From: a virus
Virus record (IMG/VR): IMGVR_UViG_3300045988_054096
Location: 55,944 to 119,943 of that record
Strand: one strand, 5' to 3'
DNA length: 64,000 bases
The notes under the pieces were generated by a model that saw nothing but the letters and a program-made list of their open reading frames with translations, did not search any database and was not told where the DNA came from. Below are positions 29,645-55,042 of the stretch, piece by piece; positions within the stretch are counted from its first letter, which is position 1; each line of letters begins with the position of its first letter. A program made the translations under genes and the position numbers.

Positions 29645-29673
29645 AATACTTGCTGCAAGTGTTCTTGTTATGT
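29645..29673 (+). promoter_or_regulatory. variant copy of conserved intergenic motif (ACTTGCTGCAAGTGTTCTTGTTATG)
   Basis: matches consensus aaTTGCTGTnnGTnnTCTTaTta found at 8 other intergenic sites; directly after stop of gene 29681..29971. Confidence 0.3.
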
Positions 29674-29680
29674 CTAGTAA

Positions 29681-29971
29681 TTAGTTCGTGTTAAATCCGT
29701 AACCAAATCCTAGTCTAGTAGTTATATACTTGCCTATGTCACCAAGTTTCTTTCTAAGCCTTGAAACAGTAGTGTCAACTGCTCTTAAGGAAACTTCTGA
29801 GTCCCATACAGCTTGCATAATCTCCTTTCTTGTATAAATTTTATCTCTATTCTTTAGAAAGAATACCAATAGGTTATATACTGTTTTAGTAAGATTTACT
29901 TCTACTCCCTCTAAATAGCACTCTTTCTTGTCCAAATCTACTACCAGAGTTTTAAATTCTATTTTATTCAT
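29681..29971 (-). CDS. winged-helix DNA-binding protein (OmpR/PhoB C-terminal effector-like)
   Basis: 96 aa; YTRKEIMQAVWDSEVSLRAVDTTVSRLRKKL...TRLGFGY pattern of trans_reg_C. Confidence 0.55.
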   Translation of the reverse strand: MNKIEFKTLVVDLDKKECYLEGVEVNLTKTVYNLLVFFLKNRDKIYTRKEIMQAVWDSEVSLRAVDTTVSRLRKKLGDIGKYITTRLGFGYGFNTN

Positions 29972-30594
29972 TTTCCTATCTTAGTTTCTTCATCATATTT
30001 CCGATAACGATAATAACTTCTTTCTCCACATTTATTCTTAGATTTATAAGTATCTAATTGTGAATCACAGTTAGGACATATACATCTAAGATTATCCCTC
30101 TTATTATTAGAAGCGTGACCATCTATATGATCCAGAACAAACACTAGAGGTTTCCCATTCCACTCTGGTTTCATTCCACATATAGCACAAACTCCTCCCT
30201 GTTCTTGAAGTATATCGTCTTTGAAATGTTTAGGAATATAATTGGCTCGCATTATAGAAGGATCCCCATCTAGTATTTTTTGATAGCCTATTTTATGATT
30301 ATATTCTAGTCCACATTCAGCACAACAGAACTTATTGGAATATCCACTTACCTTTTTAAATTCTTTTCCACAGTTCGCGCAGACTCTTGTAGGAACCTTT
30401 ATAACTCCTTTATTGAAAGTTTCTCTATCGTTAACAACTCTTCTTTGTGGAAGTTCAATTCCAAGTCTTAGTGCAACTTTTTTAATATTAGATCCACTGC
30501 AATTATATCTTCTTCCTATTTCTTCATAGCTTAATTTTTCGACTAATATCAATTGTTCTAAGTTTTCTTTCTCTGATTCCCATTTACTTTTCAT
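29968..30594 (-). CDS. HNH endonuclease with N-terminal HTH
   Basis: 208 aa; HTH EIGRRYNCSGSNIKKVALRLG; C-terminal CAICG...VLDHIDGHASNNKRDNLRCICPNC HNH motif. Confidence 0.55.
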   Translation of the reverse strand: MKSKWESEKENLEQLILVEKLSYEEIGRRYNCSGSNIKKVALRLGIELPQRRVVNDRETFNKGVIKVPTRVCANCGKEFKKVSGYSNKFCCAECGLEYNHKIGYQKILDGDPSIMRANYIPKHFKDDILQEQGGVCAICGMKPEWNGKPLVFVLDHIDGHASNNKRDNLRCICPNCDSQLDTYKSKNKCGERSYYRYRKYDEETKIGK

Positions 30595-30706
30595 AATTCA
30601 TATAATTTGTTCAAATATACGAATAATAAATTTCGAATCAAAGTAAGATTACGAATATTTGCTTAAGCTGTTGAACTTAGGAGTAGATATAAGGTCTTAA
30701 ATTTGG

Positions 30707-30781
30707 TACACCCGGTGGGATTCAAACCCACAACCTACGCCTTAGAAGGGCGTTGCTGCTATTCAGTTGAGCTACGGGTGC
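30707..30781 (-). tRNA. tRNA-Arg (anticodon UCU)
   Basis: GCACCCGTAGCTCAACTGAAT...loop CTTCTAA...GTGGGTTTGAATCCCACCGGGTGT. Confidence 0.6.
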
Positions 30782-30883
30782 CTATAAGCAGGGCAATTTA
30801 GTTTTTCAGGTCATTTCGGACTCTCTTCGAAAAGTTTTATAGTGCTATACGCTATAACCACTCGCCCTACTGTCAGAACACTT

Positions 30884-30952
30884 ACTTTTGGGATTCGAAC
30901 CTCTTAATTAGAAATTAAGTGTGCTACCATTACACCACATATCCTATAAAAT
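30884..30952 (-). tRNA. tRNA-like, nominal anticodon UCU, Gln-type D-arm, weak T-stem/acceptor (possible pseudo-tRNA)
   Basis: GGATATGTGGTGTAATGGTAGCACACTTAATTTCTAATTAAGAGGTTCGAATCCC; D-arm identical class to tRNA-Gln and the CUA suppressor; acceptor pairing not found. Confidence 0.3.
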
Positions 30953-31039
30953 GGCGGATAATAGAAAGTAAATATAATAACTCTTAATAACTATCCCAAG
31001 TTAAAAAGTGTTAATCAAAAGATAGCTTGTTGAAGGAAA

Positions 31040-33818: not shown

Positions 33819-33984
33819 ATGTTATAGCAAGTTCTTTATCTTGCATCCTAGAGTTTCCCCTAGGTATCGGACTATATCATCATCTACATGAGATGTTGGG
33901 CGCTCGTGGGCACATTATATTCTCCTAATAGAGTTTCAGTGCCTAGTCTCTGAACCTTCTAGAGTTGTTAAGCTCTAGCTCGGC

Positions 33985-34461
33985 TTAGGATTGCCTTGTA
34001 AAATCAGCAACTTTGCAACATAAATTTTTGAAATCAGAGTCGGATAATCCATTTTTCATGATATTAATGGGTTTGTATACCCACTGTACATTTCCAATTT
34101 CATATCCTTTGTCAGAATCAATTCTATCAACTGAAGCATTGGATTCCCCTTTCGGAGTATCTACTACTTGTAGGTCTATACCTGTATAAGCACATTTGAA
34201 GTTTTGCTTCTGCAATACTTTATATAGATCTTCCAAGGTCACACTACAATCAATAATTTTACCTCCACGAATAAGATTATCTTTTATAGAGGATAACCAT
34301 ACAACATGCATTCCGTTTTCATCAAAATAGCCTCTGGACTTTCGCTTATCTGGATAATTATTTTTCCTTCCACACTTTCTACAACATTTAAATTGCATTT
34401 TCTCTAGTTCTGAAAGGCGTTTATAATCAATATTTCCACATCTGCATTGAAATTTTACCAT
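33985..34461 (-). CDS. HNH endonuclease
   Basis: 158 aa; N-terminal Cys cluster, C-terminal ASVDRIDSDKGYEIGNVQWV HNH motif. Confidence 0.5.
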   Translation of the reverse strand: MVKFQCRCGNIDYKRLSELEKMQFKCCRKCGRKNNYPDKRKSRGYFDENGMHVVWLSSIKDNLIRGGKIIDCSVTLEDLYKVLQKQNFKCAYTGIDLQVVDTPKGESNASVDRIDSDKGYEIGNVQWVYKPINIMKNGLSDSDFKNLCCKVADFTRQS

Positions 34462-34652: not shown

Positions 34653-35549
34653 TTACTTTCGACGTGTAGGTATTCTCCATTTAGCTCTCCTCTCAACGTC
34701 ATTAGGATGAGTGAGATCGCCAAGGAAGGGTCTTCCCACAAGATCCTTGTACATCTGACCAAAGTCACGATATGGTCTCAACTTTGAGCAATAATCCTTT
34801 CCATTAGCTTTGTATTCAGAACTTCTAAAGGTTAATGGTGGGACTAGTTGAGAAATGTCCTTTTCCAATAACCTGCAAAGCGCTTGAGCTCTGATAATTG
34901 CATTGGGATCCAATGGAAACCCTCCAAGGTGGATATGTAGAGAACACTCCTTGTTAAAAGCAGTATACTCTTTTAAACTCTTCAATTCTTGTTTTAGAAG
35001 AGACAATCCATCATTACCATTAAGGACAACCGTAGAGTACTCTAATCCGGAGATTGATCCATCTCGCAAAGGAATTAGTCCGTCCCTGAAACAAATATCC
35101 TCTGGTATGTATCCCATAGAAGTTTCAAATTCTAACCCAAATGTATACTTCAGGTACTTAGACAGAGTGTATTCAGTATCCTTATCAAGCACCCTCTGTT
35201 TTCCATCGAAAAGGCAAAAGCTTTCAACAGCTTCATATCTTTTATCAAAGGAATACGGAAACCCTCCTTGTCCTTTTACATTTGTCTCATAAACAAGAGC
35301 TTCTTCTGGAAAATCAATAGTAGATATGTATATGCCTTTACTCTGACTATACACTAAGTGATCTTTCAAGAGCTCTTTATCTCCCCTAAAGACTTCCGTT
35401 CCACTAGAAGTTTCAATCATAACATCTACCACAGTCTCTCGTCTACTAGAATAACCCAATACGACCAGCCCGGGAAGATGTTTCACTACAACACGTTCAC
35501 ATTCTGAAAGTGGTAGAAATTGTTTAGTTATTTCATCAAAGACTTGCAT
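34653..35549 (-). CDS. amidoligase (glutamine-synthetase-like COOH-NH2 ligase, Pfam Amidoligase_2-like)
   Basis: 298 aa; FGLEFE...RDGSISGLEY...CSLHIHLGG signature. Confidence 0.55.
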   Translation of the reverse strand: MQVFDEITKQFLPLSECERVVVKHLPGLVVLGYSSRRETVVDVMIETSSGTEVFRGDKELLKDHLVYSQSKGIYISTIDFPEEALVYETNVKGQGGFPYSFDKRYEAVESFCLFDGKQRVLDKDTEYTLSKYLKYTFGLEFETSMGYIPEDICFRDGLIPLRDGSISGLEYSTVVLNGNDGLSLLKQELKSLKEYTAFNKECSLHIHLGGFPLDPNAIIRAQALCRLLEKDISQLVPPLTFRSSEYKANGKDYCSKLRPYRDFGQMYKDLVGRPFLGDLTHPNDVERRAKWRIPTRRK

Positions 35550-36871
35550 TCTTCTCGTATGGTTTTGAAATTAAGTTCTAGTTTGTCCTGAAACTTAGAC
35601 TCCAATGGTTCAGTATCTCTACGATAACTTGTTGATTGTCTCATTCCAGAACAAAATTGAGTGGTAGTTACAGATGTTAGCTGTTGAAGTGTACCTGTAA
35701 ATAGAATAGATCCAGTAGGAGAAATGGTCTTATACCATAGATCTCCTCGACAGAAAACTCCATCAACACTAAGGTACCTAATCACATTCTCAAATTTCCT
35801 GCTAAACTTGCTTTCAGACAATCTAGTTTCTTTCCTAAGTCTCGTTAAGAACTTAAAGCAGTTACTATTCTTCATAGCAACTCCATTAAAGAACCAGATG
35901 TCTATTCCTCTTTTTTGTTTAGATTCAACACGACCAAATCTATTGACACACAGCTTGCCATGGATACGTTTCCCTTTATAGGAATAGGTATTATCTAACA
36001 AATTGCAGCTAAGATAATTGTCATAAACAAAAGTGTCATCAGAATAATCATAGTCATCCCACTTTCCGAGATAGTCCCTGCTGTATGGAAAGGCATTGTA
36101 TGTTGGAACTACTGCTACTTCTTTAGTTTGGATACATTTCTCTCTACTATACTCCTTAATAGTTACTAGAGCAGATCCACTAAACTCTAGAAGCTCATTG
36201 CTCCGAACTGAATACGTTGTACAATCTTTCCTCAATGCAAGCAGATAGATTCCAATAGAAGAGAATACTAACTCCCTTTTGGCTTTGTCTATGCAGAAAT
36301 ACAATGGACGCTCTACCTCCGCTTCCTTGGAATAGGTATGCTTTTTAGAAGCTCCCTTAAACAGAAGTACTCTTGGAGAAATTCCTCGATAATCAACAAT
36401 AGCGAACGCTGACCCTCCATTATATTCATCGAGTACATCATAACCAGCGTAATAAAAGATTCTAGCCATGACCTGAGAATCAGTTAATCCAGTAATGTCA
36501 ATATCAGGAATATACTTCTCAGCAAGTTCCTTGTAGTTGTAGATAGTTCCATTGTGGATTACTACAAACTTTACAACCCCACCTTCGGTTAAGACAACTG
36601 GTTGAGCTGTCTCCTTAGATATTACCCCAACAGAGGCTTTTCTACAGTGCAAGAGAGCTATTCTAGCTGTCTTAACATTGTTCAAAAAGTCACTATCCGG
36701 AAAATAGTTAGCGAACAATTTAGTCTTGTCAACACCATAATCACATTTACCGTCTATAAAGACACCACAAGAGTCTCCACCTCGGGCATCATTAGCAATG
36801 CCCAAGGTACAAAACGTAGAATAATCAAACTCCCTCGGAGTTTGATTAATAATTCCAGCAATTCCACACAT
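35528..36871 (-). CDS. class II (Ntn) glutamine amidotransferase
   Basis: 447 aa beginning MCGIAGI (N-terminal nucleophile Cys2); overlaps neighbours. Confidence 0.65.
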   Translation of the reverse strand: MCGIAGIINQTPREFDYSTFCTLGIANDARGGDSCGVFIDGKCDYGVDKTKLFANYFPDSDFLNNVKTARIALLHCRKASVGVISKETAQPVVLTEGGVVKFVVIHNGTIYNYKELAEKYIPDIDITGLTDSQVMARIFYYAGYDVLDEYNGGSAFAIVDYRGISPRVLLFKGASKKHTYSKEAEVERPLYFCIDKAKRELVFSSIGIYLLALRKDCTTYSVRSNELLEFSGSALVTIKEYSREKCIQTKEVAVVPTYNAFPYSRDYLGKWDDYDYSDDTFVYDNYLSCNLLDNTYSYKGKRIHGKLCVNRFGRVESKQKRGIDIWFFNGVAMKNSNCFKFLTRLRKETRLSESKFSRKFENVIRYLSVDGVFCRGDLWYKTISPTGSILFTGTLQQLTSVTTTQFCSGMRQSTSYRRDTEPLESKFQDKLELNFKTIREECKSLMK

Positions 36872-36874
36872 AGG

Positions 36875-37660
36875 TTATATGATGTTATACTCAGAGATAA
36901 CTCTCTTAGCAAGTTCTAAATCACTATTGTTTATTACACTACAAGCAATCGCAGGACTTATGAGAGTACTTCCTTTAGAGCAGTGGTATATTGCTTTTGA
37001 AAGCTGGTCCCATACAAAGTTCAAAGTTTCTACATCCTTCATCATAGCACCGCTCAATACCCTATACTCTACACCATATGGAGTGAGTCTAAAACATCCT
37101 GCCTTACCATACAAAGAACGTCTTCTCTTATCCCTATCCCTCACAACAGATGGAATGCCAAGATACATATCTAAGTACTTAACCAATGCTACAGATGTGT
37201 CAATGTTGTTATTAGCATACCCAATGTGGAAGCCACAGCTCCTGAGGTTAGTTTTGTTTCCTTCTGGTTTAGGATTAGCCTCTTCTGTATAAGCATTGTA
37301 GTCTACATCACATCCAAAGAGTTTAGCCTGAGGACTTCTCAATTGACTAGCGTCTACCGTTTTCGATGCTGCACAGAGTATTCCGAGATCGGGATTAATG
37401 TTCTTAACAAATTTATCAATATATGCCTTCATATACTCAATGTTGTTTATGAAGGATATCCTATCATTAACAGGAGGTATATTAAACTCCGCTACGATGT
37501 TGTCGGTTTCCAACCCAAATCCACTCGGCATATCTGCTGCTACATAAGGATTTCCCTTCTCTCCAGGGATCAATCCAATAGAAGACACAACCTTCTTTGT
37601 TTTCTCATTTATGATAAACAATTCAGGATCTGCTCCTATAGTTATATTATTTATTCTCAT
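36875..37660 (-). CDS. second amidoligase-like / COOH-NH2 ligase-like protein
   Basis: 261 aa; GADPELF...SCGFHIGY...GVEYRVL resemble ligase motifs; weak. Confidence 0.3.
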   Translation of the reverse strand: MRINNITIGADPELFIINEKTKKVVSSIGLIPGEKGNPYVAADMPSGFGLETDNIVAEFNIPPVNDRISFINNIEYMKAYIDKFVKNINPDLGILCAASKTVDASQLRSPQAKLFGCDVDYNAYTEEANPKPEGNKTNLRSCGFHIGYANNNIDTSVALVKYLDMYLGIPSVVRDRDKRRRSLYGKAGCFRLTPYGVEYRVLSGAMMKDVETLNFVWDQLSKAIYHCSKGSTLISPAIACSVINNSDLELAKRVISEYNII

Positions 37661-38790: not shown

Positions 38791-38882
38791 TAGGTAGCTG
38801 GTGTATAGTCTGTACACATTTAGGAATTAATTCCACTTAGCTCGGGATTATTATCATTTATAGGGCTGATACCTTCCCCGAA

Positions 38883-40158: not shown

Positions 40159-40209
40159 AATTACAGAGTACAATTTCTAAACATTACAATTTAAAAGATT
40201 GGTGTTTGA

Positions 40210-40238
40210 AATGAGTTGCTGTTTGTACTCTTCTACTA
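40210..40238 (+). promoter_or_regulatory. conserved intergenic motif copy (GAGTTGCTGTTTGTACTCTTCTACTAACG)
   Basis: consensus aaTTGCTGTnnGTnnTCTTaTta; ~57 nt upstream (minus-strand sense) of tRNA-Cys 5' end. Confidence 0.35.
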
Positions 40239-40646: not shown

Positions 40647-40665
40647 CATAACATACAAGTTAAAG

Positions 40666-41152
40666 TGGAGATGGAGGGAATCGAACCCTCGTCCAAACAA
40701 TCCTTAATAATAAGATAACGTGTGTCTCTATTTTATTTATCAGCTGTTGAGGTTCAGCTTATTTAGTTATATGACACTAACAAACTAGGGCTGACCAGAA
40801 TGTCAACGCTCCACCACCTACTTTTTAACGCTAAAGCAGGAAAACGAGTGTTTGTGGTGAGTCAACCACGCAGGCACACATCCCTTCTGTTTAAAGACAA
40901 TAATAGGAGATTCAGCTCTACTAACCTGTGGCTTTCGAGTTAAGCACAGTGGCTTATATCCTTCTGCTGTACACCTCTTCCGTTTCTAGGTCTCTCCCTG
41001 TAACCCGACTCAACACATCAACAGCTGAGCCAGCTGCTTAGGCAGCCATTCTTACTTCATTGTAGTTTGCATTTATTGTTTTCCTTCGTTTAAAGAGATC
41101 GCGCTCTACACGTCTTATTACCTCGTAATCGTTGTCAATACCAAGCATCCCC
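40666..41152 (-). ncRNA. ssrA: tmRNA (ssrA), ~487 nt, tag peptide ANYNEVRMAA
   Basis: 5' GGGGATGCTTGGTATTGACAACG pairs with 3' CATCTCC-A; 3' end TTTGGACGAGGGTTCGATTCCCTCCATCTCCA closely matches tmRNA consensus GGACG.GGGTTC.A.TCCC.CCA.CTCCA; internal frame GCA AAC TAC AAT GAA GTA AGA ATG GCT GCC TAA (41070 to 41038) followed by hairpin GCAGCTGGCTCAGCTG. Confidence 0.6.
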
Positions 41153-41158: not shown

Positions 41159-41277
41159 CAGAAATCTATTCAACTTGTCTTTTGCTCTGCCAACTGAGCT
41201 ACCTCCTGTTTATAATGTCTAGTCAGGAGGATGAGACTCGAACTCATGACTCAAAGATCCCTTCAATAGCTTTGCTG
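41159..41277 (-). ncRNA. Y-RNA-like (YrlA-like) RNA with permuted tRNA-like domain
   Basis: minus strand 5'-CAGCAAAGCTATT GAAGGGA TCTTT GAGTC ATGAG TTCGAGT CTCAT CCTCCTG A [CTAGACATTATAAA] CAGGAGG TA GCTC AGTTGGCA GAGC A AAAGA CAAGTTG AATAGATTTCTG-3': T-arm + 3' acceptor precede 5' acceptor + D-arm; AAAGA/TCTTT and CAGCAAAGCTATT/AATAGATTTCTG form a long terminal stem with 7x7 internal loop where an anticodon arm would be. Confidence 0.45.
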
Positions 41278-41298
41278 TTAGATTTCTTATTAGTGAAG

Positions 41299-41372: not shown

Positions 41373-41425
41373 ATAAGTGCAGAATACTTCTTCTTAGCTT
41401 TATCAAATCCCAAAATTGATGCTCA

Positions 41426-41454
41426 AGAAAATTGCTGTAAGTATTCTTATTATT
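41426..41454 (+). promoter_or_regulatory. conserved intergenic motif copy (AAAATTGCTGTAAGTATTCTTATTATTAA)
   Basis: between tRNA-Ile and tRNA-Pro; ~54 nt upstream of tRNA-Pro 5' end on minus strand. Confidence 0.35.
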
Positions 41455-41470
41455 AAATCAAAAAGGCGAG

Positions 41471-41544: not shown

Positions 41545-41597
41545 ATATACAGAAGACCTGTTTTAGCGTTTTCAATTTACAAGATTGATGCTTAAAC

Positions 41598-41626
41598 AAA
41601 GTTGCTGTAGGTCTTCTTATTAATAT
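41598..41626 (+). promoter_or_regulatory. conserved intergenic motif copy (CAAAGTTGCTGTAGGTCTTCTTATTAATA)
   Basis: directly after stop of gene 41629..43077 and ~60 nt upstream of tRNA-Ile 5' end. Confidence 0.35.
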
Positions 41627-44907: not shown

Positions 44908-46650
44908 TTATTTCTTTTTACTTGTTTTACGTTTCGGTTTATTTACTACGACTTGCAATCTGTTCAACAAGTCCTGATCCATTGCAACCATGAAGAGTTC
45001 TTCTGCATTCTTTGGAGTACGTTTCATAGTACCAGTTCCCACGATGAATGCTACGGCTGATGGATCATAGCCAGACATATAGAAGAAGTTTGGAGCATCT
45101 GCAAAGTCTTCAAACTTAACTGCGTTTCCACTACCATAATAGTAATTAGGAATATCCCACATAATTAATTTGAAGTTCTTCACATACTCTTCGCTGAATC
45201 CAGCTTCCTTTAAGCGTCTGATAGCAGTTTGGAAGTTCGTACTGTCATTCCCACTTCCATATCTAGCAGGATTCAACTCCCCATCAGACACAAGAAGCAA
45301 TCCAGTTGGAAAGTCTTCATCCTTAACTCCTCTCTGTTTAAGATTGATAAACAAATCTATAACAGATTGGAAGTTAGTTCCACCATAGGCTTCACATCTA
45401 TCGTTGATATACTTATCAACTGGTGTGTCACCTTTCCACTGATGTAACTTACATTTGTCTGCAAACTCTGCAAATGAGTTGGTAAACGGACCAGTCAAGA
45501 ACTCAGAGAAATACAACGCCATAGATTTGCCTATATCATAAGCTGATACATTACATCCTCTAGCCTTAGAAGTCATAGAAGAGGAAGTATCTCTTACAAC
45601 AAGGAGTCTAGAATTAGTGTTAACTCCTTCCTTACCAGTCTTTACAAGCTGTGCAAACTGTGCATTGATTGTGTTCTCCTTATAGTCCTCAATGTGGTAA
45701 CAATTATAGCCACTACCAAGAGGAGTGAACAATTCAAATACAAAGCCTGTATACTTCGCAACTGGTTTAGACTGTATCCACTTAGAATACTTCTCAGTAA
45801 GATTGTGATTCTTCAGGAACTCAGAACCAACGAGAATAGCCAATGCTCTACCAGCAATATGATCGAAGTTAATCTTATCATACAACTGTTGAGAAATCAG
45901 CTGTTGCCATTGGTGAGCTTTTCCCTCAGATTTCATCTTACGATAAGCCTTATAAGCAGACTCTTTCTCCAAATCTGGAGAGAACTTACGAGCTATCCAT
46001 CTACCAATTAAGGTATCAGCCTGAGACTCCACAGTCTTACAGTTCTTGTTAGTACGGATAGCAGGCATATACTTTCTTACCAAGTGAGTAGTCTCTGGAT
46101 TTGTGAATCCAGCAGCTATTACAAGGAAGAAGAAATTCCAATCAAGCTTTCTGCCTTCCCACCCATGATACTGTAAGTCAAGGGATAACATCTGGAAGAC
46201 ATCTTTCCAAGAACCAGCGGCAACGAAGTATGCAAAGTTTGCTTTGAACGTCTTCGGTTGGTTGATAGCCAACCACAACATTCTCATAATGCCTTCGTTC
46301 TTCAAACCCTGTCCTCTCTGTACTTCCAACTCTTCGATAGAACCATCATCCTTTACTACCTTTGACTTACGAGTAATCAATCTGATATACACTGCAAGTT
46401 TCAGACACAACTTCGGATCAAGGCTCCAGAGCAACTCCATGTCCTTTGCTACTTCCTTATAAGAGCGAGGCTCTTTAAAGTATGATATGGCAGCGAAGTT
46501 ATCTACAAAGTCATTGCCAGAAGTGTTGTACTTCTTAGCTCCATTTCCAGATTGGACTACAGAAGTTTCCTTCATCCCTTCTTTCAGAAATTGATTTTCA
46601 GTTCCCTTGTTGGTATCCATAAGGGAACTAAGTTTCTTTTCAAATACCAT
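44908..46650 (-). CDS. rsr: Ro60/Rsr ortholog (TROVE-like helical N-terminal region + C-terminal von Willebrand A domain)
   Basis: 580 aa; vWA MIDAS DTSSSM, GGTNF, LLLVSDGE, and C-terminal MSGYDPSAVAFIVG closely parallels Ro60 DVSASM...GGTDCS...MCGFDTGALDVI; no in-frame TAG. Confidence 0.5.
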   Translation of the reverse strand: MVFEKKLSSLMDTNKGTENQFLKEGMKETSVVQSGNGAKKYNTSGNDFVDNFAAISYFKEPRSYKEVAKDMELLWSLDPKLCLKLAVYIRLITRKSKVVKDDGSIEELEVQRGQGLKNEGIMRMLWLAINQPKTFKANFAYFVAAGSWKDVFQMLSLDLQYHGWEGRKLDWNFFFLVIAAGFTNPETTHLVRKYMPAIRTNKNCKTVESQADTLIGRWIARKFSPDLEKESAYKAYRKMKSEGKAHQWQQLISQQLYDKINFDHIAGRALAILVGSEFLKNHNLTEKYSKWIQSKPVAKYTGFVFELFTPLGSGYNCYHIEDYKENTINAQFAQLVKTGKEGVNTNSRLLVVRDTSSSMTSKARGCNVSAYDIGKSMALYFSEFLTGPFTNSFAEFADKCKLHQWKGDTPVDKYINDRCEAYGGTNFQSVIDLFINLKQRGVKDEDFPTGLLLVSDGELNPARYGSGNDSTNFQTAIRRLKEAGFSEEYVKNFKLIMWDIPNYYYGSGNAVKFEDFADAPNFFYMSGYDPSAVAFIVGTGTMKRTPKNAEELFMVAMDQDLLNRLQVVVNKPKRKTSKKK

Positions 46651-47709: not shown

Positions 47710-47766
47710 AATTTACTAAAATTTCAGAAGACTGTTATAATTCCTCCTTTCAAACTAGAACACTGA

Positions 47767-47795
47767 GCAAATTGCTGTTAGTCTTCTTGCAAATA
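47767..47795 (+). promoter_or_regulatory. conserved intergenic motif copy (CAAATTGCTGTTAGTCTTCTTGCAAATAT)
   Basis: consensus match; ~63 nt upstream of ORF 47709 on minus strand. Confidence 0.35.
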
Positions 47796-47864
47796 TAAAA
47801 TGGAAAACTTAAAGTTCAAAAATCAGAATACCATCTTTTTATTCTAAACCACACTTTAGAAATA

Positions 47865-47893
47865 CAAAATTTGCTGTTGGTATTCTTATACTC
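47865..47893 (+). promoter_or_regulatory. conserved intergenic motif copy (CAAAATTTGCTGTTGGTATTCTTATACTC)
   Basis: consensus match. Confidence 0.35.
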
Positions 47894-47899
47894 GTAACG

Positions 47900-48365
47900 C
47901 AAACAGTCCTACATTTCTGCAAGCCTTGATGCAAATATTTTCGTTCTTAGGGTGCTGTTACACCAAATGCTCTAAGGGCGGTTACTGACATTGAACGTAT
48001 ATGTGCATTGACTTATTTACACATTAGCCTAGTTCGTTCTCCTAGTAAAGGCTAAGGGTATCACGTACCCTCTCGATCTTAATTCCAGGTTCCTCTCGTA
48101 CTGTTGGAACTTATCAATAACTGACTCCGACACTTAATATCACATTGAGCAACGTATAGGAACCCTCGCCATTTCAGACTTGGAATACTACTCTCCGAGA
48201 TTAATGCTTATATCTCCCTGTGGTTCTACGGAAGGACCAGTAAGTTCTATACCTTCACGCTTGTCTACATTGTGTTAGCTAGACACAACTTATGGGATTT
48301 CCCATTAACTTCCACTCGCAACTCTTTAAATGATGGCTACTTCCAAGCCTACATCCCCAAGAACT
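47900..48365 (-). other. ~460-nt non-coding region, candidate structured RNA
   Basis: no ORF >30 codons in any frame even allowing TAG read-through; contains sarcin-ricin-like CAGTACGAGAGGAACC and several GC-richer helices; flanked by motif copy and tRNAs. Confidence 0.25.
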
Positions 48366-49131: not shown

Positions 49132-49599
49132 GAGAGTGTTCCCAGTCTAAAAGCCGTGGCTAATAGGTGGGAACTAGCATATATGCTAGAACTGCCTAGG
49201 AAGGCAGTAAAGGAAGAAAAGAGAGACTAGCTTGTGTAGGCTTACCTCTACCATACATAGTCTTAGTCTCTGTCACTACATAAAGTAGCCTGTACTCGTT
49301 ACATAAATGAGTGAGCCAACTCCAGCAGTTTCTTGTTGAAACTCTTTCAAAGTCACCAGTTTATAGATTACTGGAAACTGAGGTACTTTACTAAAGTGAG
49401 AATACATGAACCTTGTTAGTCTCAAGGTCCTCGTTCACCTGAGCTGCTATTCGCATAGCATCACCGATTTTATCAAATGTTGTAGCCCTGTTAGGGTTAC
49501 TTACAATAATGATTTCTCCGTCTTGTCCTTGCCTTATAAAGGCTTTAGGACTAATCTTTAAAATGTACATATTCTTCTATTTTTAGGTTAATATTGTGT

Positions 49600-49677
49600 A
49601 CTGGTGGAAGGACTTGAACCTTCGACCTTGATGGTATAAGCATCCTGCGCTAACCGACTGCGCCACACAGTGTAGAC
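49600..49677 (-). tRNA. tRNA-like with anticodon UAU (Ile?), imperfect acceptor
   Basis: CACTGTGTGGCGCAGTCGGTTAGCGCAGGATG CTTATAC CATCAAGGTCGAAGGTTCAAGTCCTTCCACCAGT. Confidence 0.35.
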
Positions 49678-49890
49678 ACACACGAAGTGTGCATTGTCTC
49701 TTTAAGGATAGAGACTATCCTGCCAGGTCGGGTCATTGTAATGAGTCTACAGCAAGTGTGTCAGCTGATAGTGTGTCAACAGCTACAGTATCAACCTTTA
49801 CTGAATCAACTTGTTCAACATTCTTTGCAGTGTTACCACATGAAGTGAACATTGCTCCACACATCAGTGCAAAACTAATTAAAAGTGCTT

Positions 49891-50620
49891 TCATTTTAAA
49901 ATATTATTTAATAATGTTATTATTTGATCTTGAGAATAAGTATAAGGAATTTCAACTAGATTTAGTTTCTATTCCTCACAGTATCTTCTAAGATCCTCAT
50001 CTCTTACTTTCTACTTTAGGAAGTCTCTTTCAGCCTTTTCCTAATCCCCTGTAAACGGAATAGGTATATAATGCTATCTACCATTATATTCTATTACAAT
50101 CTACTTGCTTGGAATATAGAAGTCAACAATTATTTTCTTTCTGGATCTAAAGTTTCCTTCTAATTCATACTAAGACAGGTAGTTAATTTGTCCTCCATCA
50201 AGATAGCTTGATATAAGCCTCTCTCCGTGACTTTCTTTACACTTCGGACATCCATGTCCATATATGTGTATGCCTGGTGTCTGAAGGAATGAACCGTGTA
50301 TAGGACATATTATTTCTACCTTTTGATGTTGTCCGCAGTACTTTAGAGTAATCATACTTGTCCTTATGAACCTACTTGGCTTTCCTTATGAAATCTTCCT
50401 AAGTATCAGACTTAGCCTTACGCATCTTCTCCCTTCCACATTTTGGACATCCTGACCCACTCAGGAAAGAATTTGCGCTCTTTTCAAATTGTCCATGTAT
50501 AGGACAAATTACAGTTATTTTATCTCTACTACTAACATAAACGGACTAAGAGTAATCGTAGTCCTAGGTAGGATAAATTTCCTTAGCTTTCTAGATAAAC
50601 TCTTCTGTAGTTAGCTTTCT
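49891..50620 (-). CDS. second homing-endonuclease-like gene (paralog of 23231..23950), TAG-recoded and split by a frameshift near 50345
   Basis: MRKLTTEEFI*KAKEIYPT*DYDYS*SVYVSSRDKITVICPIHGQFEKS...GCPKCGREK...DT*EDFIRKAK*VHKDKYDYSKV / frame change / KYCGQHQKVEIICPIHGSFLQTPGIHIYGHGCPKC (track ORF 50170..50355) then read-through ...NYLS*YELEGNFRSRKKIIVDFYIPSK*IVIEYNGR*HYIPIP... to TGA at 49891-49893. Confidence 0.4.
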
Positions 50621-50631
50621 CATTTCTAATG

Positions 50632-51078
50632 TTACTTAGCTCCATCACACAACGAGAATAAATAGTCAAATTTGTTAACATTTTGAATAAATGTCTCACA
50701 TTCTGACTTCAATCCAGCATATAATGGATTTTCAGGAATTTGTTTGTAGAAGCTAAGAGTTCCTGCTTTTACTTCATCAACGAATTGTTGAGCATTCTAA
50801 GCATTACCTGGATCTCCTTTAACATCACTCGGTCCTAAATGTACACTTAGTACTCCCATGATGCCTTCTGCAACAGTATCCTAATAATCTGAGATAACTT
50901 CTAAGAACTCATCCAAATACACATGGACGTTCTTCTTAGGAGCTGCCCAGTGTAAGTTCTTACATTTTGTTTTCCATCCTTCCAACTTACAGATAAAGTC
51001 GAGGAAAGGTTTAAGGCCTGATACCTATCCTCCATTCTGAAATACTGGAGTTCTTGGAACTAGTGGTACTATACTCAT
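50632..51078 (-). CDS. Dps/ferritin-like protein, TAG-recoded (3 in-frame TAG)
   Basis: MSIVPLVPRTPVFQNGG*VSGLKPFLDFICKLEGWKTKCKNLHWAAPKKNVHVYLDEFLEVISDY*DTVAEGIMGVLSVHLGPSDVKGDPGNA*NAQQFVDEVKAGTLSFYKQI...CDGAK, TAA stop; Dps-like LHW...YLDEF...D.VAE pattern. Confidence 0.55.
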
Positions 51079-51133
51079 TCTAAAAATGCATTTTTAATTG
51101 TTAATAAATAGAATCTATTTGCTACATCCAAAG

Positions 51134-53549: not shown

Positions 53550-53644
53550 ACAGAAAATCAGATATGTATTCATTTAAAGTGCTCTAAACCAGCTGAGCTA
53601 TACCCGACGAATCGGATAGCAGGATTCGAACCTACGACCCCTTG
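53550..53644 (-). ncRNA. Y-RNA-like RNA with permuted tRNA-like domain (second copy)
   Basis: minus strand: TTCATTAATG...GTAGG TTCGAAT CCTGC TATCCGA T [TCG] TCGGGTA TA GCTC AGCTGGTTTA GAGC A CTTTAAATGAA; 3' tRNA half precedes 5' half with 3-4 nt linker; termini TTCATT/AATGAA pair. Confidence 0.4.
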
Positions 53645-53663
53645 CTTGGAAGGCATTAATGAA

Positions 53664-53692
53664 AAACAATTGCTGTTACATATCTTATTAGC
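53664..53692 (+). promoter_or_regulatory. conserved intergenic motif copy (AAACAATTGCTGTTACATATCTTATTAGC)
   Basis: abuts 5' end of Y-RNA-like element and follows stop of gene 53694..53939. Confidence 0.35.
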
Positions 53693-53693
53693 A

Positions 53694-53939
53694 TTATCCT
53701 AAAAACTTTATACCACCTACACACGTATGATATGACTTCTTACCATTCTTTTCTAAGATATAGTAGTAATCCCTATAAGTATAAGACATACCTATAAGGG
53801 TTTTTACTTCTCCTGTAGGCTCTACTACTACTTGCTGGCCAAAATGCTTACCACATTCTCTAAACCATTCTGGGAAGTCTTTATCGAAGCCATCCTTGAT
53901 TTCATTATTGGCTAAGGCAGACCCGTCGTAAATACCCAC
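53694..53939 (-). CDS. hypothetical protein
   Basis: 81 aa ORF. Confidence 0.25.
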   Translation of the reverse strand: MGIYDGSALANNEIKDGFDKDFPEWFRECGKHFGQQVVVEPTGEVKTLIGMSYTYRDYYYILEKNGKKSYHTCVGGIKFLG

Positions 53940-54075
53940 CTCTTCCCCCCCCCATTATCATAATCCTCAATTCTATGAAAATCTTTCTTGTAGTGTTCAT
54001 ATTCCCAAATACAATACCTATCTCTATAAGTTCTATCTTTGGGATCTTTAGCCAAAGCGGGTTCAGCTAATTTCT

Positions 54076-54456
54076 TTAATTCTTCGATAAGCTCCTTTCT
54101 ACCCATGTTGATGATTTAGTTTTTACTGGCTTGGTTTCAACAAGATTTACAAACCGGCATTCAAGCATTTTCACACCAGTTTCTACAAACTCTACATCCC
54201 ACCCTCTGTATCCACTATCTCCAATAATCTTTACGGGAGTTCCAGCAGGATATATAATCATCTCATTAAAATTGTTAGGAGTTTTATACCATTCCTTTGG
54301 CTCTCCTAAATAAACAATATCTCCAATCTTCATTTTGATATAATTTTTACATTTTGCGCACGCTACTGGATTCGAACCAGTGATGGGGCTTTTGCCACGG
54401 CAGATTAACAGTCTGCTGCCTTCGTCCACTCGGCCAAACGTACAGAATGCTACCAA
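54076..54456 (-). CDS. hypothetical protein
   Basis: 126 aa ORF; note 3' region overlaps tRNA at 54357..54443 so true start is probably downstream. Confidence 0.2.
   Translation of the reverse strand: MVAFCTFGRVDEGSRLLICRGKSPITGSNPVACAKCKNYIKMKIGDIVYLGEPKEWYKTPNNFNEMIIYPAGTPVKIIGDSGYRGWDVEFVETGVKMLECRFVNLVETKPVKTKSSTWVERSLSKN
54357..54443 (-). tRNA. type II (long variable arm, Ser-like GCC...GGC D-arm) tRNA carrying anticodon GUU (Asn codons)
   Basis: GTACGTTTGGCCGAGTGGACGAAGGCAGCAGA CTGTTAA TCTGCCGTGGCAAAAGCCCCATCACTGGTTCGAATCCAGTAGCGTGC-G; perfect anticodon stem. Confidence 0.45.
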
Positions 54457-54624
54457 TTAATCAAGATGATCCCAACATCTATTCAGATTAATTGTAGCCG
54501 AGCCATTTTATTCTAGTAAAAATGACTAAACACCTAAGACTCTATCACCTCAAGTCTTACAGAGGTACAGAATTAGCAGTATGTAAACCCGGCAGCTTAT
54601 CGCATAGCCCTTGCGTGGGAATAG

Positions 54625-54696
54625 TAGTGCTACTGAGAATCGAACTCAGATTTCTACCTTGAGAGGGCAGTTACCTAACCGTTAGTAGATAGCACC
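54625..54696 (-). tRNA. tRNA-Glu (anticodon CUC)
   Basis: GGTGCTATCTACTAACGGTTAGGTAACTGCC CTCTCAA GGTAGAAATCTGAGTTCGATTCTCAGTAGCACT. Confidence 0.5.
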
Positions 54697-54877
54697 ATAC
54701 CAGAGTGCAATCACCCACTTGTCTGACCTAACGTCGCAGAGACCAATTTACGGCATTCATAACCCAAAGTATGCGTAGGGCTGCTCTCTAAGAGCAGAAT
54801 CAAAGTAATACAGAGTACATTTAGGGATTTGAACCCATTCCTTTAAAGTGTGACAAACTTCATTGTTAAACCATAGA

Positions 54878-54906
54878 AATTGCTGATGTACTCTTGTTAT
54901 TAACCC
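54878..54906 (+). promoter_or_regulatory. conserved intergenic motif copy, variant (GAAATTGCTGATGTACTCTTGTTATTAAC)
   Basis: consensus match with one substitution. Confidence 0.3.
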
Positions 54907-55013
54907 AAAAACAATCATCAAAGAAATCAGATAGCGTTTTGTGCTAATTATTTTACCTCGCTAACACTGACGAGTCTCTTTATAAAACCCAAAATTATAA
55001 GAAATCAGTATAA

Positions 55014-55042
55014 TTAATTTTGCTGTACGCTATCTTATAATC
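55014..55042 (+). promoter_or_regulatory. conserved intergenic motif copy (AATTTTGCTGTACGCTATCTTATAATCTA)
   Basis: consensus match. Confidence 0.35.

What the first reader, a model, noticed from the sequence alone, without database searches (positions are those of the whole stretch)
29645..55042. Conserved ~26-nt intergenic motif aaTTGCTGTnnGTnnTCTTaTta recurring upstream of tRNA/ncRNA genes
Nine copies, all in the same orientation on the plus strand, at 29645, 40210, 41426, 41598, 47767, 47865, 53664, 54878 and 55014; weaker variants lie near 46655 and 43690. They occur only in the tRNA-rich accessory region. They are typically 30-65 nt upstream of a tRNA or Y-RNA 5' end relative to the minus strand, or directly after a protein-gene stop. 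On the minus strand the motif reads TAATAAGAAnACnnACAGCAAtt, which does not resemble the Bacteroidetes sigma-A -33 TTTG/-7 TAnnTTTG promoter. It may therefore be a promoter for a phage-specific polymerase or sigma factor, or an RNA processing or termination signal for the tRNA array.
Basis: seen in the sequence. Interest (0 to 1): 0.55.

Follow-up and report, generated by a model that had tools for sequence, protein, structure and literature searches.

The report
Y-RNA-like small RNAs in phage tRNA array
The repeated "promoter-like" motif is one strand of a conserved base-paired stem shared by about ten small structured RNAs scattered among a gut phage's tRNA genes, and these RNAs most likely partner with a phage-encoded relative of the Ro60 RNA-quality-control protein.

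Summary
All nine copies exist, all lie on one strand, and there is a tenth at 41266-41288 (8 hits at ≤1 mismatch versus 0.22 expected). All genes run on the minus strand, where the motif reads (A)AGA-N6-ACAGCAA.

In every copy the variable N6 is exactly complemented 45-170 nt downstream by N6'-UCU-G. So the motif is the 5' strand of a covarying 9-bp terminal helix plus an internal loop, not a promoter. The helix encloses variable "cargo":
- tRNA-like domains in two copies, with sub-threshold Rfam YrlA hits
- anticodon-stem-loop look-alikes
- other hairpins

Five of the ten helices end 6-8 nt before a mature tRNA or tmRNA 5' end.

The family recurs hundreds of times in related ~175-kb gut phages. 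A 580-aa DUF2828/DUF7788 protein in the middle of the region folds like Ro60; its best PDB match is a phage Ro60. The same RNA module also sits in the 5' UTR of distant bacterial DUF2828 genes.

Best reading: a multi-copy family of Y-RNA-like ncRNAs, released by tRNA processing and bound by a divergent Ro60-like protein. This is a new variant of a known kind. Binding and function are inferred, not shown.

The parts
29490..29665 (-). Element E1 (176 nt): AGAACACUU-GCAGCAA-[long cargo]-AGGUGUUCU. Its 3' arm ends 7 nt before tRNA-Leu(UAG).
40165..40231 (-). Element E2 (67 nt): AGAGUACAA-ACAGCAA-[3-bp + 5-bp hairpin with loop CUUUUAA, identical to a tRNA-Lys(UUU) anticodon loop]-UUGUACUCU. It ends 6 nt before tRNA-Cys.
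41160..41287 (-). Element E3 (128 nt): AGAAAUCUA-ACAGCAA-[tRNA-like domain: T arm, acceptor stem closed by a loop, D arm]-UAGAUUUCU. It ends 7 nt before the phage tmRNA.
   Evidence: (Rfam YrlA 33.8 bits, gathering score 69)
41381..41447 (-). Element E4 (67 nt): AGAAUACUU-ACAGCAA-[hairpin with loop UUUGGGA, like a tRNA-Pro(UGG) anticodon loop]-AAGUAUUCU. It starts 22 nt after tRNA-Ile and ends 8 nt before tRNA-Pro.
41551..41617 (-). Element E5 (67 nt): AGAAGACCU-ACAGCAA-[hairpin with loop CUUGUAA, like a tRNA-Thr(UGU) anticodon loop]-AGGUCUUCU. It starts about 10 nt after the stop codon of the AAA-ATPase gene and ends 6 nt before tRNA-Ile.
47726..47787 (-). Element E6 (62 nt): AGAAGACU(A)-ACAGCAA-[hairpin]-(C)AGUCUUCU, an 8-bp helix. 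A 62-aa ORF follows about 16 nt downstream.
47825..47886 (-). Element E7 (62 nt): AGAAUACCA-ACAGCAA-[7-bp hairpin]-UGGUAUUCU. It lies in tandem with E6, 37 nt upstream of it.
53560..53685 (-). Element E8 (126 nt): AGAUAUGUA-ACAGCAA-[tRNA-like domain with T arm, acceptor stem capped by a UUCG tetraloop, D arm]-UACAUAUCU. It starts 8 nt after an ORF stop codon.
54812..54894 (-). Element E9 (83 nt): AGAGUACAU-CAGCAA-[hairpins including a T-arm-like GGGUUCAAAUCCC]-AUGUACUCU.
54929..55035 (-). Element E10 (107 nt): AGAUAGCGU-ACAGCAA-[long hairpin]-ACGCUAUCU. It starts 29 nt after tRNA-Gly and lies in tandem with E9.
44908..46650 (-). Gene for a 580-aa DUF2828 + DUF7788 protein (helical repeats plus a vWA domain with a DxSxS MIDAS motif). 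It is predicted to fold like Ro60/Rsr and is the proposed protein partner of the RNA module.
   Evidence: AF2 pLDDT 88.3; Foldseek top hit 9kop, phage phiLo Ro60, E 4.6e-7; then 1yvr, 2i91, 1yvp and 9nen
40665..41152 (-). Phage tmRNA. Its mature 5' end lies 7 nt after the 3' arm of E3, so RNase P cleavage here would create the 3' end of E3.
   Evidence: the same YrlA-like-plus-tmRNA pair occurs in L001, L122 and L126
41298..41544 (-). tRNA-Ile (41470-41544) and tRNA-Pro (41298-41372), whose 5' ends lie 6 and 8 nt after the 3' arms of E5 and E4. The arrangement is the polycistronic unit E5-tRNA-E4-tRNA-E3-tmRNA.

Best explanation
The motif is the 5' half of a shared RNA module. Read on the transcribed (minus) strand, the module is 5'-A|AGA-N6|A-CAGCAA ... 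A-rich|N6'-UCU|G-3'. It has three features:
- a 9-bp terminal helix whose three outer pairs (A-U, G-C, A-U) are nearly invariant and whose inner six pairs covary
- an internal loop directly above the helix, with the invariant 5'-strand sequence (A)CAGCAA
- variable cargo of 35-160 nt closed off by the module: a tRNA-like domain (two window copies, YrlA-like), a mimic of a tRNA anticodon stem-loop (three copies), or other hairpins

The ten elements are transcribed together with the tRNAs.

Inferred steps:
1. RNase P cleavage at the next tRNA or tmRNA leaves a 5-9-nt 3' tail.
2. Processing of the upstream tRNA's 3' end frees the 5' end.
3. This yields discrete small RNAs whose two ends are paired, which is the architecture of Y RNAs.
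4. The common module is the binding site for the phage's divergent Ro60-like protein (DUF2828/DUF7788, 44908-46650).
5. The variable cargo tethers or presents different partners, as in Ro60-Y RNA particles.
6. In some bacteria and one phage locus the same module sits at the very 5' end of the DUF2828 mRNA, next to the start codon. There it would act as an adjacent Y-like RNA or as an autoregulatory operator.

Shown: the motif, the helix, the covariation, the spacing, the fold similarity and the co-occurrence. Inferred: processing, protein binding and function.
For: 1. Helix. All 10 window copies were picked by the 5' motif alone, and all have a complementary arm ending in UCU 45-170 nt downstream. 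In 8 copies the nine pairs are perfect Watson-Crick; E1 has one G·U pair and E6 has 8 pairs. The chance of a given perfect 9-mer within 200 nt is about 8e-4 per copy.

2. Covariation. On 55 elements from the window and 13 related loci, the helix is 95% paired, 6 of 9 pairs show double changes, and there are 113 compensatory cells versus 31 in shuffles. Slid registers give 31-55% pairing. Orthologues show compensatory swaps: E3 is AGAAAUCUA/UAGAUUUCU in the window and AGAAAUCCA/UGGAUUUCU in L001, L122 and L123; E8 is ..GUA/UAC.. in the window and ..GUU/AAC.. in L122.

3. A test that does not select on pairing. In 79 IMG/VR loci flanking DUF2828 homologues (43-84% identity), the 5' core occurs 349 times on the gene strand and 21 times on the other. 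The 3' arm is present in 266 of 349 (76%) versus 5 of 21.

4. Unselected flanking positions are conserved: A(-1) 98%, A before CAGCAA 89%, G(+1) 93%.

5. Coupling to tRNA processing. 30 of 55 elements end 5-9 nt (mode 6) before a mature tRNA or tmRNA 5' end, and many start 5-45 nt after a tRNA 3' end.

6. Y-RNA likeness. E3 and E8 carry a T arm, a closed acceptor stem and a D arm, and hit Rfam YrlA over the full model at E 6.5e-4. Related elements score 30-40 bits. Of 252 distinct elements, 90 carry a T-arm motif. Published Y RNAs are described as a 5'-3' stem flanking an internal loop or bulge that carries a conserved 5'-strand motif, GNCGAA or CGAA (PMC4201824, PMC12135203).

7. Protein. The DUF2828/DUF7788 protein was modelled at pLDDT 88.3 and pTM 0.88. 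Its top six PDB matches are all Ro60, full length: phage phiLo Ro60 9kop (E 4.6e-7, TM 0.60), X. laevis 1yvr, 2i91 and 1yvp, and human 9nen.

8. Independent co-occurrence. In 598 kb around distant bacterial DUF2828 genes the module occurs 9 times on the gene strand and 0 times on the other. Eight of the nine lie in the gene's own 5' UTR, with UCUG 4-5 nt before the ATG. The same holds in L214-L217 and in phage locus L125.
Against: - No expression, end-mapping or binding data exist, so processing and Ro60-like binding are inferences.
- The conserved loop sequence ACAGCAA differs from the canonical Ro60-binding motif GNCGAA/GGUCCGA.
- Rfam YrlA scores are far below the gathering score (30-40 bits versus 69).
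- Pfam does not place the protein in TROVE.
- In the phages, association with the Ro60-like gene is confounded with association with the tRNA array, since both lie in the same region.
- Only about 14 of 73 bacterial DUF2828 loci show the leader module, so the link is clade-limited.
- 25 of 55 elements are not next to an annotated tRNA.
- Selection of related-locus elements required at least 8 of 9 pairs, so the percentage paired there is partly circular.
Confidence: 0.68

Rival explanations
1. The elements are cis-acting structured spacers or leaders of the polycistronic tRNA precursor. In this view the hairpins position or assist RNase P and 3'-end processing, or block exonucleases. They would have no trans function and no dedicated protein partner.
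For: The 3' arm lies a fixed 5-9 nt before tRNA or tmRNA 5' ends in 30 of 55 elements, and elements sit between closely spaced tRNAs. They are confined to the tRNA region.
Against: - A simple clamp does not need an invariant ACAGCAA loop, invariant AGA/UCU pairs, or elaborate conserved cargo such as tRNA-like domains and anticodon-loop mimics with an invariant 7-nt loop.
- 25 of 55 elements are not next to a tRNA. E6 and E7 precede an ORF.
- The same module occurs in the 5' UTR of bacterial DUF2828 genes where no tRNA is near.
Confidence: 0.15
2. The motif is a DNA-level promoter or other transcription signal for a phage-specific RNA polymerase or sigma factor.
For: The motif shows strict strand bias and intergenic location, lies upstream of RNA genes, and has an A/T-rich conserved flank (nAYA) just 5' of it. 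A sigma-70-family gene occurs in one related locus (L125).
Against: - The 'variable' motif positions covary with a distant downstream arm, which a promoter does not require.
- Copies begin 5-31 nt after the preceding tRNA.
- In bacteria the module follows a canonical TTTG/TAnnTTTG promoter and is therefore transcribed.
- Tandem copies lie 34-37 nt apart (E7-E6 and E10-E9).
Confidence: 0.04
3. The module is a small self-cleaving ribozyme, or a site for a dedicated endonuclease or ligase that excises or circularises the cargo. The paired ends would bring the 5' and 3' termini together.
For: Conserved nucleotides cluster at the base of the helix (A|AGA...UCU|G) and in the adjacent loop. The ends are juxtaposed. 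Group I introns and homing-endonuclease genes are present in the same region.
Against: No Rfam ribozyme family matches even at E ≤ 5. The conserved core is very small. No RtcB or RNA-ligase gene was found among the window ORFs scanned. The leader copies next to start codons in bacteria fit a binding site better than a cleavage site.
Confidence: 0.05
4. The elements are miniature mobile elements (MITE-like) or recombination or homing sites with terminal inverted repeats.
For: They have multiple copies, inverted terminal arms and variable internal content. HNH, GIY-YIG and LAGLIDADG endonuclease genes are nearby in the window and related loci.
Against: - The arms differ between copies but stay complementary within each copy, whereas transposon inverted repeats are conserved between copies.
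- All copies share one orientation relative to transcription: 349 versus 21.
- Orthologous elements are syntenic across phages with compensatory changes.
- No target-site duplications are seen.
Confidence: 0.02

Closest known systems
Bacterial and phage Y RNAs (YrlA/YrlB, Rfam RF02553; Yrn1) with Ro60/Rsr
   Same: - The 5' and 3' ends pair in a terminal stem.
- A conserved 5'-strand motif sits in the adjacent internal loop.
- The distal module varies; in YrlA it is a tRNA-like domain with T arm, D arm and a closed acceptor stem, and E3 and E8 have exactly this.
- Shorter paralogues lack the tRNA-like part, like YrlB.
- They are encoded near a Ro60-fold gene, with several paralogues per genome.
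   Different: - The loop motif is (A)CAGCAA, not GNCGAA(N)G.
- Rfam scores are 30-40 bits against a gathering score of 69.
- The protein belongs to DUF2828/DUF7788, not Pfam TROVE.
- There are about 10 copies per genome rather than 1-4.
- The elements are embedded in a tRNA array with a fixed 5-9-nt spacing to tRNA 5' ends.
- Cargo includes anticodon-stem-loop mimics.
Thermus phage phiLo phiRo60 with Yrl1/Yrl2 (PMC12135203; PDB 9KOP)
   Same: It is a phage-encoded Ro60 homologue that binds phage-encoded Y-like RNAs, described as a 5'-3' stem flanking an internal bulge with a short conserved motif. 9KOP is the best structural match to the window protein.
   Different: phiLo has two Yrls with a CGAA motif directly upstream of the gene. 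Here there are ten RNAs with ACAGCAA dispersed over 25 kb among tRNAs. Sequence identity to 9KOP is only about 14%.
Small RNAs made by the tRNA-processing machinery, such as the 3'ETS-leuZ sponge in E. coli and the MHV68 tRNA-miRNA TMERs (recalled from my own knowledge, not checked here)
   Same: Non-tRNA small RNAs lie in tRNA precursors, and RNase P or RNase Z cleavage of the neighbouring tRNA defines their ends.
   Different: Those RNAs have no shared protein-binding scaffold and no link to Ro60. The tRNA-processing origin is only inferred here, from spacing.
Autoregulatory mRNA leaders that mimic the protein's RNA ligand, such as ribosomal-protein leaders and the thrS operator that mimics the tRNA-Thr anticodon arm (recalled from my own knowledge)
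   Same: In bacteria and in one phage locus the module lies in the DUF2828 mRNA leader, abutting the start codon. This is the classic arrangement for feedback by an RNA-binding protein.
   Different: No regulation has been demonstrated. The leader copy may instead simply be a Y-like RNA gene adjacent to its protein gene.

Membership tests
Y RNA (general definition: Ro60-bound ncRNA) | The 5' and 3' ends base-pair to form a terminal stem. | tested here: met
   A 9-bp helix is present in all 10 window copies, with strong covariation in 55 elements. In 79 further loci, 76% of 5' cores have the 3' arm.
Y RNA (general definition: Ro60-bound ncRNA) | A conserved Ro60-binding motif on the 5' strand: GGUCCGA in animals, GNCGAA(N0-1)G or CGAA in bacteria and phages. 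| tested here: not met
   The invariant 5'-strand loop sequence is (A)CAGCAA. It holds the same position, but the canonical sequence is absent (PMC4201824 and PMC12135203).
Y RNA (general definition: Ro60-bound ncRNA) | Encoded next to, or in the same locus as, a Ro60/Rsr (TROVE + vWA) gene. | tested here: met
   At the fold level, the DUF2828/DUF7788 protein at 44908-46650 matches only Ro60 structures over its full length. Elements lie 1.1-3.3 kb away on each side. In bacteria the module is directly upstream of the gene. At the Pfam level there is no TROVE hit.
Y RNA (general definition: Ro60-bound ncRNA) | Physical association with Ro60 in vivo or in vitro. | not testable with these tools
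   This needs RIP/CLIP or EMSA.
YrlA (Rfam RF02553) | Covariance-model score at or above the gathering score of 69 bits. | tested here: not met
   E3 and E8 each score 33.8 bits (E 6.5e-4 in 27 kb) over the full model, positions 1-114. Relatives score 29.7-39.6 bits.
YrlA (Rfam RF02553) | A tRNA-like domain: T arm, D arm, and an acceptor-like stem closed by a loop, joined to the Ro-binding stem through the anticodon-stem position. | tested here: met
   Met for E3 and E8 only. E8 reads GUAGG-UUCGAAU-CCUGC (T arm), UAUCCGA-UUCG-UCGGGUA (closed acceptor) and GCUC..GAGC (D arm). E3 is analogous. The other eight window copies lack this domain.
Ro60/TROVE protein family | A HEAT-repeat ring plus a C-terminal vWA domain with MIDAS. 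| tested here: met
   The AF2 model has pLDDT 88.3. The six best Foldseek hits are all Ro60 (9kop, 1yvr, 2i91, 1yvp A and B, 9nen) over 554-593 aligned columns with TM 0.33-0.60. A DxSxS motif (DTSSSM) is present. Ring closure and the RNA-binding residues were not examined.
Ro60/TROVE protein family | Sequence-level membership in Pfam TROVE (PF05731). | tested here: not met
   Pfam gives only DUF2828 and DUF7788. Sequence and profile searches of the PDB find no Ro60.
Bacteroidetes sigma-A promoter | A -33 TTTG and a -7 TAnnTTTG element at the proper spacing upstream of a transcription start. | tested here: not met
   The motif has neither element (sequence). In bacterial loci a genuine TTTG...TAnnTTTG lies upstream of the module.
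Intrinsic terminator | A G+C-rich hairpin with a short loop, followed by a U-tract. | tested here: not met
   The arms are separated by 35-160 nt and are A/U-rich. They are followed by G plus mixed sequence and then a tRNA.

The most novel reading that the evidence does not exclude
DUF2828/DUF7788 proteins form a second, unrecognised branch of the Ro60 family, widespread in Bacteroidales and in abundant ~175-kb human-gut phages. This branch has its own RNA recognition code: an AGA/UCU-closed helix plus an ACAGCAA loop. The phages have expanded this scaffold into a toolkit of about 10 Y-like RNAs that display tRNA parts.

The most striking members display exact mimics of the anticodon stem-loops of tRNA-Lys(UUU), tRNA-Thr(NGU) and tRNA-Pro(NGG). 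In these the 7-nt loop is conserved, the wobble base may vary while positions 35-37 are kept, and the stem covaries.

Such RNAs could act as decoys or sensors for host anticodon nucleases. tRNA-Lys is the target of PARIS AriB (PMC11455837) and, from my own recollection, of PrrC. Alternatively they could recruit tRNA-specific enzymes to the Ro60-like particle. Either would be a new RNA-based counter-defence or tRNA quality-control strategy.
Probability: 0.2. Interest if true: 0.88.

Novelty: new variant of a known kind. Interest (0 to 1): 0.72.

Why it matters
Ro60-Y RNA particles are conserved from bacteria to humans, but their roles in prokaryotes and phages are poorly understood. Known bacterial Y RNAs were found only next to proteins annotated as TROVE.

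If this reading holds, it has three consequences:
- It assigns a function class to two large "domains of unknown function". Each of the two searches, with the phage protein and with the bacterial protein, returned about 1,800 clusters.
- It defines a new RNA module that can be searched for.
- It shows that abundant human-gut phages devote about ten genes inside their tRNA arrays to Y-like RNAs.

The anticodon-loop mimics connect this to the active question of why phages carry tRNA arrays and how they cope with tRNA-targeting host defences. The module is short and well defined, so binding, processing and decoy hypotheses can be tested directly.

Tried and rejected
- Megablast of 40-48 kb against INPHARED phages found no match.
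- Rfam at gathering threshold has no family for the elements. At E ≤ 5 only the two tRNA-like copies hit YrlA, and no ribozyme or riboswitch family appears.
- The tmRNA_permuted hits that overlap E3 and its orthologues (48-59 bits) are judged composite artefacts. They combine a permuted-order tRNA-like domain with the 5' part of the genuine standard tmRNA just downstream.
- A possible helix extension beyond the A·G flank (positions -2/-3 with +2/+3) is only 53-64% paired and is not supported.
- Relaxed scans (core with 1 mismatch, any 9-bp stem) gave only background, about 8.6 hits in shuffles, and no extra members.
- Sequence and profile searches of the PDB with the protein found nothing; only fold comparison revealed Ro60.
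- The exact-pattern scan of IMG/VR (AATAAGAN6ACAGCAA) returned mostly chance hits without the 3' arm. The exceptions were L001, L012, L014 and L111, plus L030 on an 11-kb contig with no tRNA. L001 and L014 lie on contigs that also carry a DUF2828 gene; the other three contigs were not checked for one.
- The genome-contig scan returned mainly phage contigs mis-binned in MAGs, plus one genuinely bacterial locus, L214.
- Folding the spacers after E8 and E9 showed no unusual stability, with z of +0.15 and +0.75.
- G·U versus A·C counts cannot serve as a strand test, because my selection allowed G·U pairs.
- MAFFT plus RNAalifold on full-length short elements recovered only 6 pairs because the cargo misaligns, so I used explicit structures instead.

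Full report
**1. Observation**

The pattern TTGCTGTNNGTNNTCTT with ≤1 mismatch occurs 8 times in the window. All hits are on the + strand and all lie between 29.6 and 55.0 kb. The expectation is 0.22, and 0 of 100 shuffles reach 8. A tenth copy at 41266-41288 was missed. The two "weaker variants" are not members: 43690 lies inside a tRNA gene, and 46655 is the leader of a protein gene and has no partner arm. All 27 tRNA genes, the tmRNA and essentially all ORFs lie on the minus strand. The motif must therefore be read as its reverse complement: (nAYA)AGA-N6-A-CAGCAA.

**2. What the motif is**

On the minus strand, the six "variable" bases after AGA are exactly complemented 45-170 nt downstream by N6'-UCU-G in every copy. 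Examples:

| Element | 5' arm | 3' arm |
|---|---|---|
| E5 | AGAAGACCU | AGGUCUUCU |
| E4 | AGAAUACUU | AAGUAUUCU |
| E2 | AGAGUACAA | UUGUACUCU |
| E8 | AGAUAUGUA | UACAUAUCU |

Eight copies have nine perfect Watson-Crick pairs. E1 has one G·U pair and E6 has eight pairs. The copies were chosen by the 5' motif alone, and a given 9-mer is expected within 200 nt with probability of about 8e-4, so this cannot be chance. A stem-only search (AAGA-N6 with a perfect complement) on the minus strand recovers eight family members plus two unrelated palindromes.

Minimum-free-energy folds form the terminal helix in all ten copies and leave ACAGCAA unpaired in an internal loop, opposite an A-rich 3' strand. 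The motif is thus the 5' strand of a helix-plus-loop module that closes elements of 62-176 nt.

**3. Conservation and covariation**

The protein encoded at 44908-46650 has many homologues on ~150-190-kb contigs from human-gut and other metagenomes. A structural scan found 55 elements in the window plus 13 related loci.

On a pseudo-alignment of their 5' and 3' parts:
- the 9-bp helix is 95% paired
- six of nine pairs show double (compensatory) changes
- there are 113 compensatory cells against 31 in shuffles
- slid registers reach only 31-55% pairing

The three outer pairs (A-U, G-C, A-U) are essentially invariant.

That set was selected for at least 8 of 9 pairs, so I also ran a test that does not select on pairing. 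In 79 IMG/VR loci flanking homologues at 43-84% identity, the 5' core AGA-N6-(N)-CAGCAA occurs 349 times on the gene strand and 21 times on the other. The 3' arm is present in 266 of 349 (76%) against 5 of 21.

Positions that my search did not fix are also conserved: A(-1) 98%, the A before CAGCAA 89%, and G(+1) 93%. Orthologous elements in different phages carry compensatory swaps. E3 has ..CUA/UAG.. in the window and ..CCA/UGG.. in L001, L122 and L123. E8 has ..GUA/UAC.. in the window and ..GUU/AAC.. in L122. A two-pair extension of the helix beyond the A·G flank is not supported.

**4. Cargo**

- **E3 and E8** enclose a tRNA-like domain in the order T arm, acceptor stem closed by a loop (a UUCG tetraloop in E8), then D arm, joined to the module through the position of the anticodon stem. 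This is the YrlA architecture. Both hit Rfam YrlA over the whole model, but at 33.8 bits against a gathering score of 69. Relatives score 30-40 bits.
- **E2, E4 and E5** enclose a 3-bp plus 5-bp hairpin with a 7-nt loop identical to an anticodon loop: CUUUUAA (Lys UUU), UUUGGGA (Pro UGG) and CUUGUAA (Thr UGU).
- **Across 252 distinct elements**, 90 have a T-arm motif and 125 are short, 50-80 nt.
- **In the anticodon-loop subfamily**, all five pairs of the 5-bp stem show double changes and the stem is 93% paired, while the loop stays fixed.
- **Loop variants** change the wobble base but keep positions 35-37: CU[U/G/C]GUAA and UU[U/A]GGGA.

**5. Relationship to tRNAs**

30 of 55 elements end 5-9 nt (mode 6) before the mature 5' end of a tRNA or tmRNA. 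In the window this holds for E1-E5. Many elements begin 5-45 nt after the 3' end of the previous tRNA. The region 41618-40665 reads E5-tRNA(Ile)-E4-tRNA(Pro)-E3-tmRNA with almost no spare sequence. This leaves no room for promoters.

The spacing implies co-transcription. The inference is that RNase P cleavage generates the elements' 3' ends with a short tail usually ending in UU. The pairing of a YrlA-like element with the tmRNA gene is syntenic in the window, L001, L122 and L126.

**6. The neighbouring protein**

ORF 44908-46650 (580 aa) matches only Pfam DUF2828 and DUF7788. Sequence searches of the PDB find nothing. A first AF2 model (pLDDT 68.7) already had Ro60/Rsr as its eight best PDB matches. 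A second model, built with a more diverse alignment, reached pLDDT 88.3 and pTM 0.88.

The six best matches of the second model are all Ro60 over the full length:
- 9KOP, E 4.6e-7, TM 0.60. This entry is the Ro60 homologue of Thermus phage phiLo, which binds two phage-encoded Y-like RNAs (PMC12135203).
- Xenopus Ro60: 1YVR, 2I91 and 1YVP.
- Human Ro60: 9NEN.

After these come only isolated vWA domains. The protein has a DxSxS MIDAS motif. It is therefore a Ro60-like protein at the fold level.

**7. An independent link between RNA and protein**

A distant homologue (33% identity) sits in a sheep-rumen Bacteroidaceae contig next to GH43 and topoisomerase genes, with no tRNAs nearby. About 45 nt upstream of its ATG is an element AAGAA..AGGGGACU-CA-CAGCAA...AGUCCCCU.UUCUU.

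I then fetched 80 metagenomic loci around homologues of that bacterial protein. In 598 kb the module (AGA-N4+, CAGCA, 7-bp complement ending UCU) occurs 9 times on the gene strand and never on the other. Eight of the nine lie in the 5' UTR of the DUF2828 gene itself. They sit directly after a TTTG...TAnnTTTG promoter, with UCUG 4-5 nt before the ATG. An example is L268: AGAAAUUUA-ACAGCAA-...-AAAUUUCU-gauu-AUG. Recognising that promoter consensus rests on my knowledge of Bacteroides promoters.

Phage locus L125 has the same arrangement.

So the module travels with this protein family in two unrelated genomic contexts. That is the strongest argument that the protein binds it. Only about 14 of 73 bacterial loci show the module, so the link is clade-limited.

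**8. Interpretation**

The elements match the published description of Y RNAs in four respects (PMC4201824, PMC12135203):
- a 5'-3' stem flanking an internal loop with a short conserved 5'-strand motif
- a variable distal module
- at least one paralogue with a tRNA-like domain, and shorter YrlB-like paralogues
- genes located near a Ro60 gene

They differ in five respects:
- the motif sequence is ACAGCAA, not GNCGAA or CGAA
- the protein subfamily is different
- the copy number is higher
- they are embedded in a tRNA array
- the cargo includes anticodon-loop mimics

I therefore file them as working like Y RNAs, as a new variant of that kind. I do not file them as members of Rfam YrlA, because that test was not met.

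Rival explanations are each contradicted by specific results, set out in the rivals section:
- promoter
- passive processing spacer
- ribozyme or ligation site
- MITE

No paper in the searchable library connects DUF2828 with Ro60 or Y RNA.

**9. Confidence**

| Claim | Confidence |
|---|---|
| The motif is one strand of a conserved, covarying RNA helix/loop module of a multi-copy ncRNA family | ~0.95 |
| These RNAs are excised through tRNA processing | ~0.7 |
| The module is the binding site of the Ro60-like protein (Y-RNA analogy) | ~0.65 |
| The anticodon-loop mimics serve as decoys or recruiters in a tRNA-centred conflict | ~0.2 |

Noticed in passing
window 40165-40231, 41381-41447, 41551-41617 (minus strand); relatives such as L123 8030-8095, L128 11948-12017, L126 14506-14572: Three window elements, and dozens in related phages, display a covarying 5-bp stem with a 7-nt loop identical to a tRNA anticodon loop: CUUUUAA (Lys-UUU, the commonest), CU[U/G/C]GUAA (Thr) and UU[U/A]GGGA (Pro). 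Among relatives the wobble base varies while positions 35-37 are kept. They may be anticodon-arm mimics.
   Followed up: partly
L254 1316-1360, L261 1380-1428, L263 3916-3963, L265 3943-3994, L268 3915-3960, L273 3914-3963, L279 61-106, L286 3913-3963; L214 8822-8899; L125 ~9925-9995: The same AGA-stem/ACAGCAA module forms the extreme 5' leader of DUF2828 (Ro60-like) mRNAs in rumen and gut bacteria and in one phage. It ends 4-5 nt before the start codon, directly after a TTTG/TAnnTTTG promoter. It may be an autoregulatory operator or an adjacent Y-like RNA.
   Followed up: partly
window 43633-43710 and 62401-62472 (minus strand): Two tRNAs with anticodon CUA, which ARAGORN labels 'tRNA-Pyl'. 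They would be amber suppressors, hinting at TAG stop-codon recoding in this phage.
   Followed up: no
window 40665-41152 (minus strand); L001 4768-5283, L122 14291-14802, L126 15021-15444: A phage-encoded tmRNA (Rfam 86-99 bits) is always immediately preceded by a YrlA-like element; the gap is 7 nt in the window. Rfam's tmRNA_permuted model also fires across the element plus the tmRNA 5' part at 48-59 bits. This is probably an artefact of the permuted order of the tRNA-like domain.
   Followed up: partly
window 38742-38945 and 33847-34125 (minus strand): There is one group I intron hit above threshold (61 bits) and one below threshold (31.7 bits). The second overlaps a 158-aa ORF at 33985-34461 that was not scanned against Pfam. 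A separate ORF at 29968-30594 has weak HNH/endonuclease VII hits.
   Followed up: no
window 34653-37660 (minus strand): A cluster of amidoligase-like (weak hit), class-II glutamine amidotransferase and phiEco32-type COOH-NH2 ligase genes. Related loci conserve the GATase and COOH-NH2 ligase genes and add a Peptidase_C26 gamma-glutamyl hydrolase-like gene.
   Followed up: no
window 41629-43077 (minus strand): A 482-aa classical AAA ATPase gene lies a few genes from the Ro60-like (vWA/MIDAS) gene and is conserved in that position in several related phages (L122, L123, L124, L126). It may be a functional partner of the vWA protein.
   Followed up: no
window 30890-30944, 47456-47520, 49599-49671 (minus strand): Rfam finds three additional tRNA hits that ARAGORN does not report. 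Two are unusually short (55 and 65 nt) and may be truncated or tRNA-like RNAs.
   Followed up: no
window 40281-40448: A perfect 10-nt inverted repeat, AAGATAGTTT/AAACTATCTT, flanks 148 nt in the 432-nt non-coding gap between the tmRNA and E2. It has no CAGCAA and is not a family member. Its function is unknown.
   Followed up: no
window 21646-22812 (minus strand): A beta-ketoacyl synthase (KAS) gene sits inside a phage replication-gene region, alongside RNR, a DnaB-like helicase and a primase-like gene. This is an unusual auxiliary gene.
   Followed up: no
window 47888-48365 and 49132-51132: Two long stretches in the tRNA region have little or no convincing coding capacity and no Rfam hit. They may hold further unrecognised ncRNAs.
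   Followed up: no
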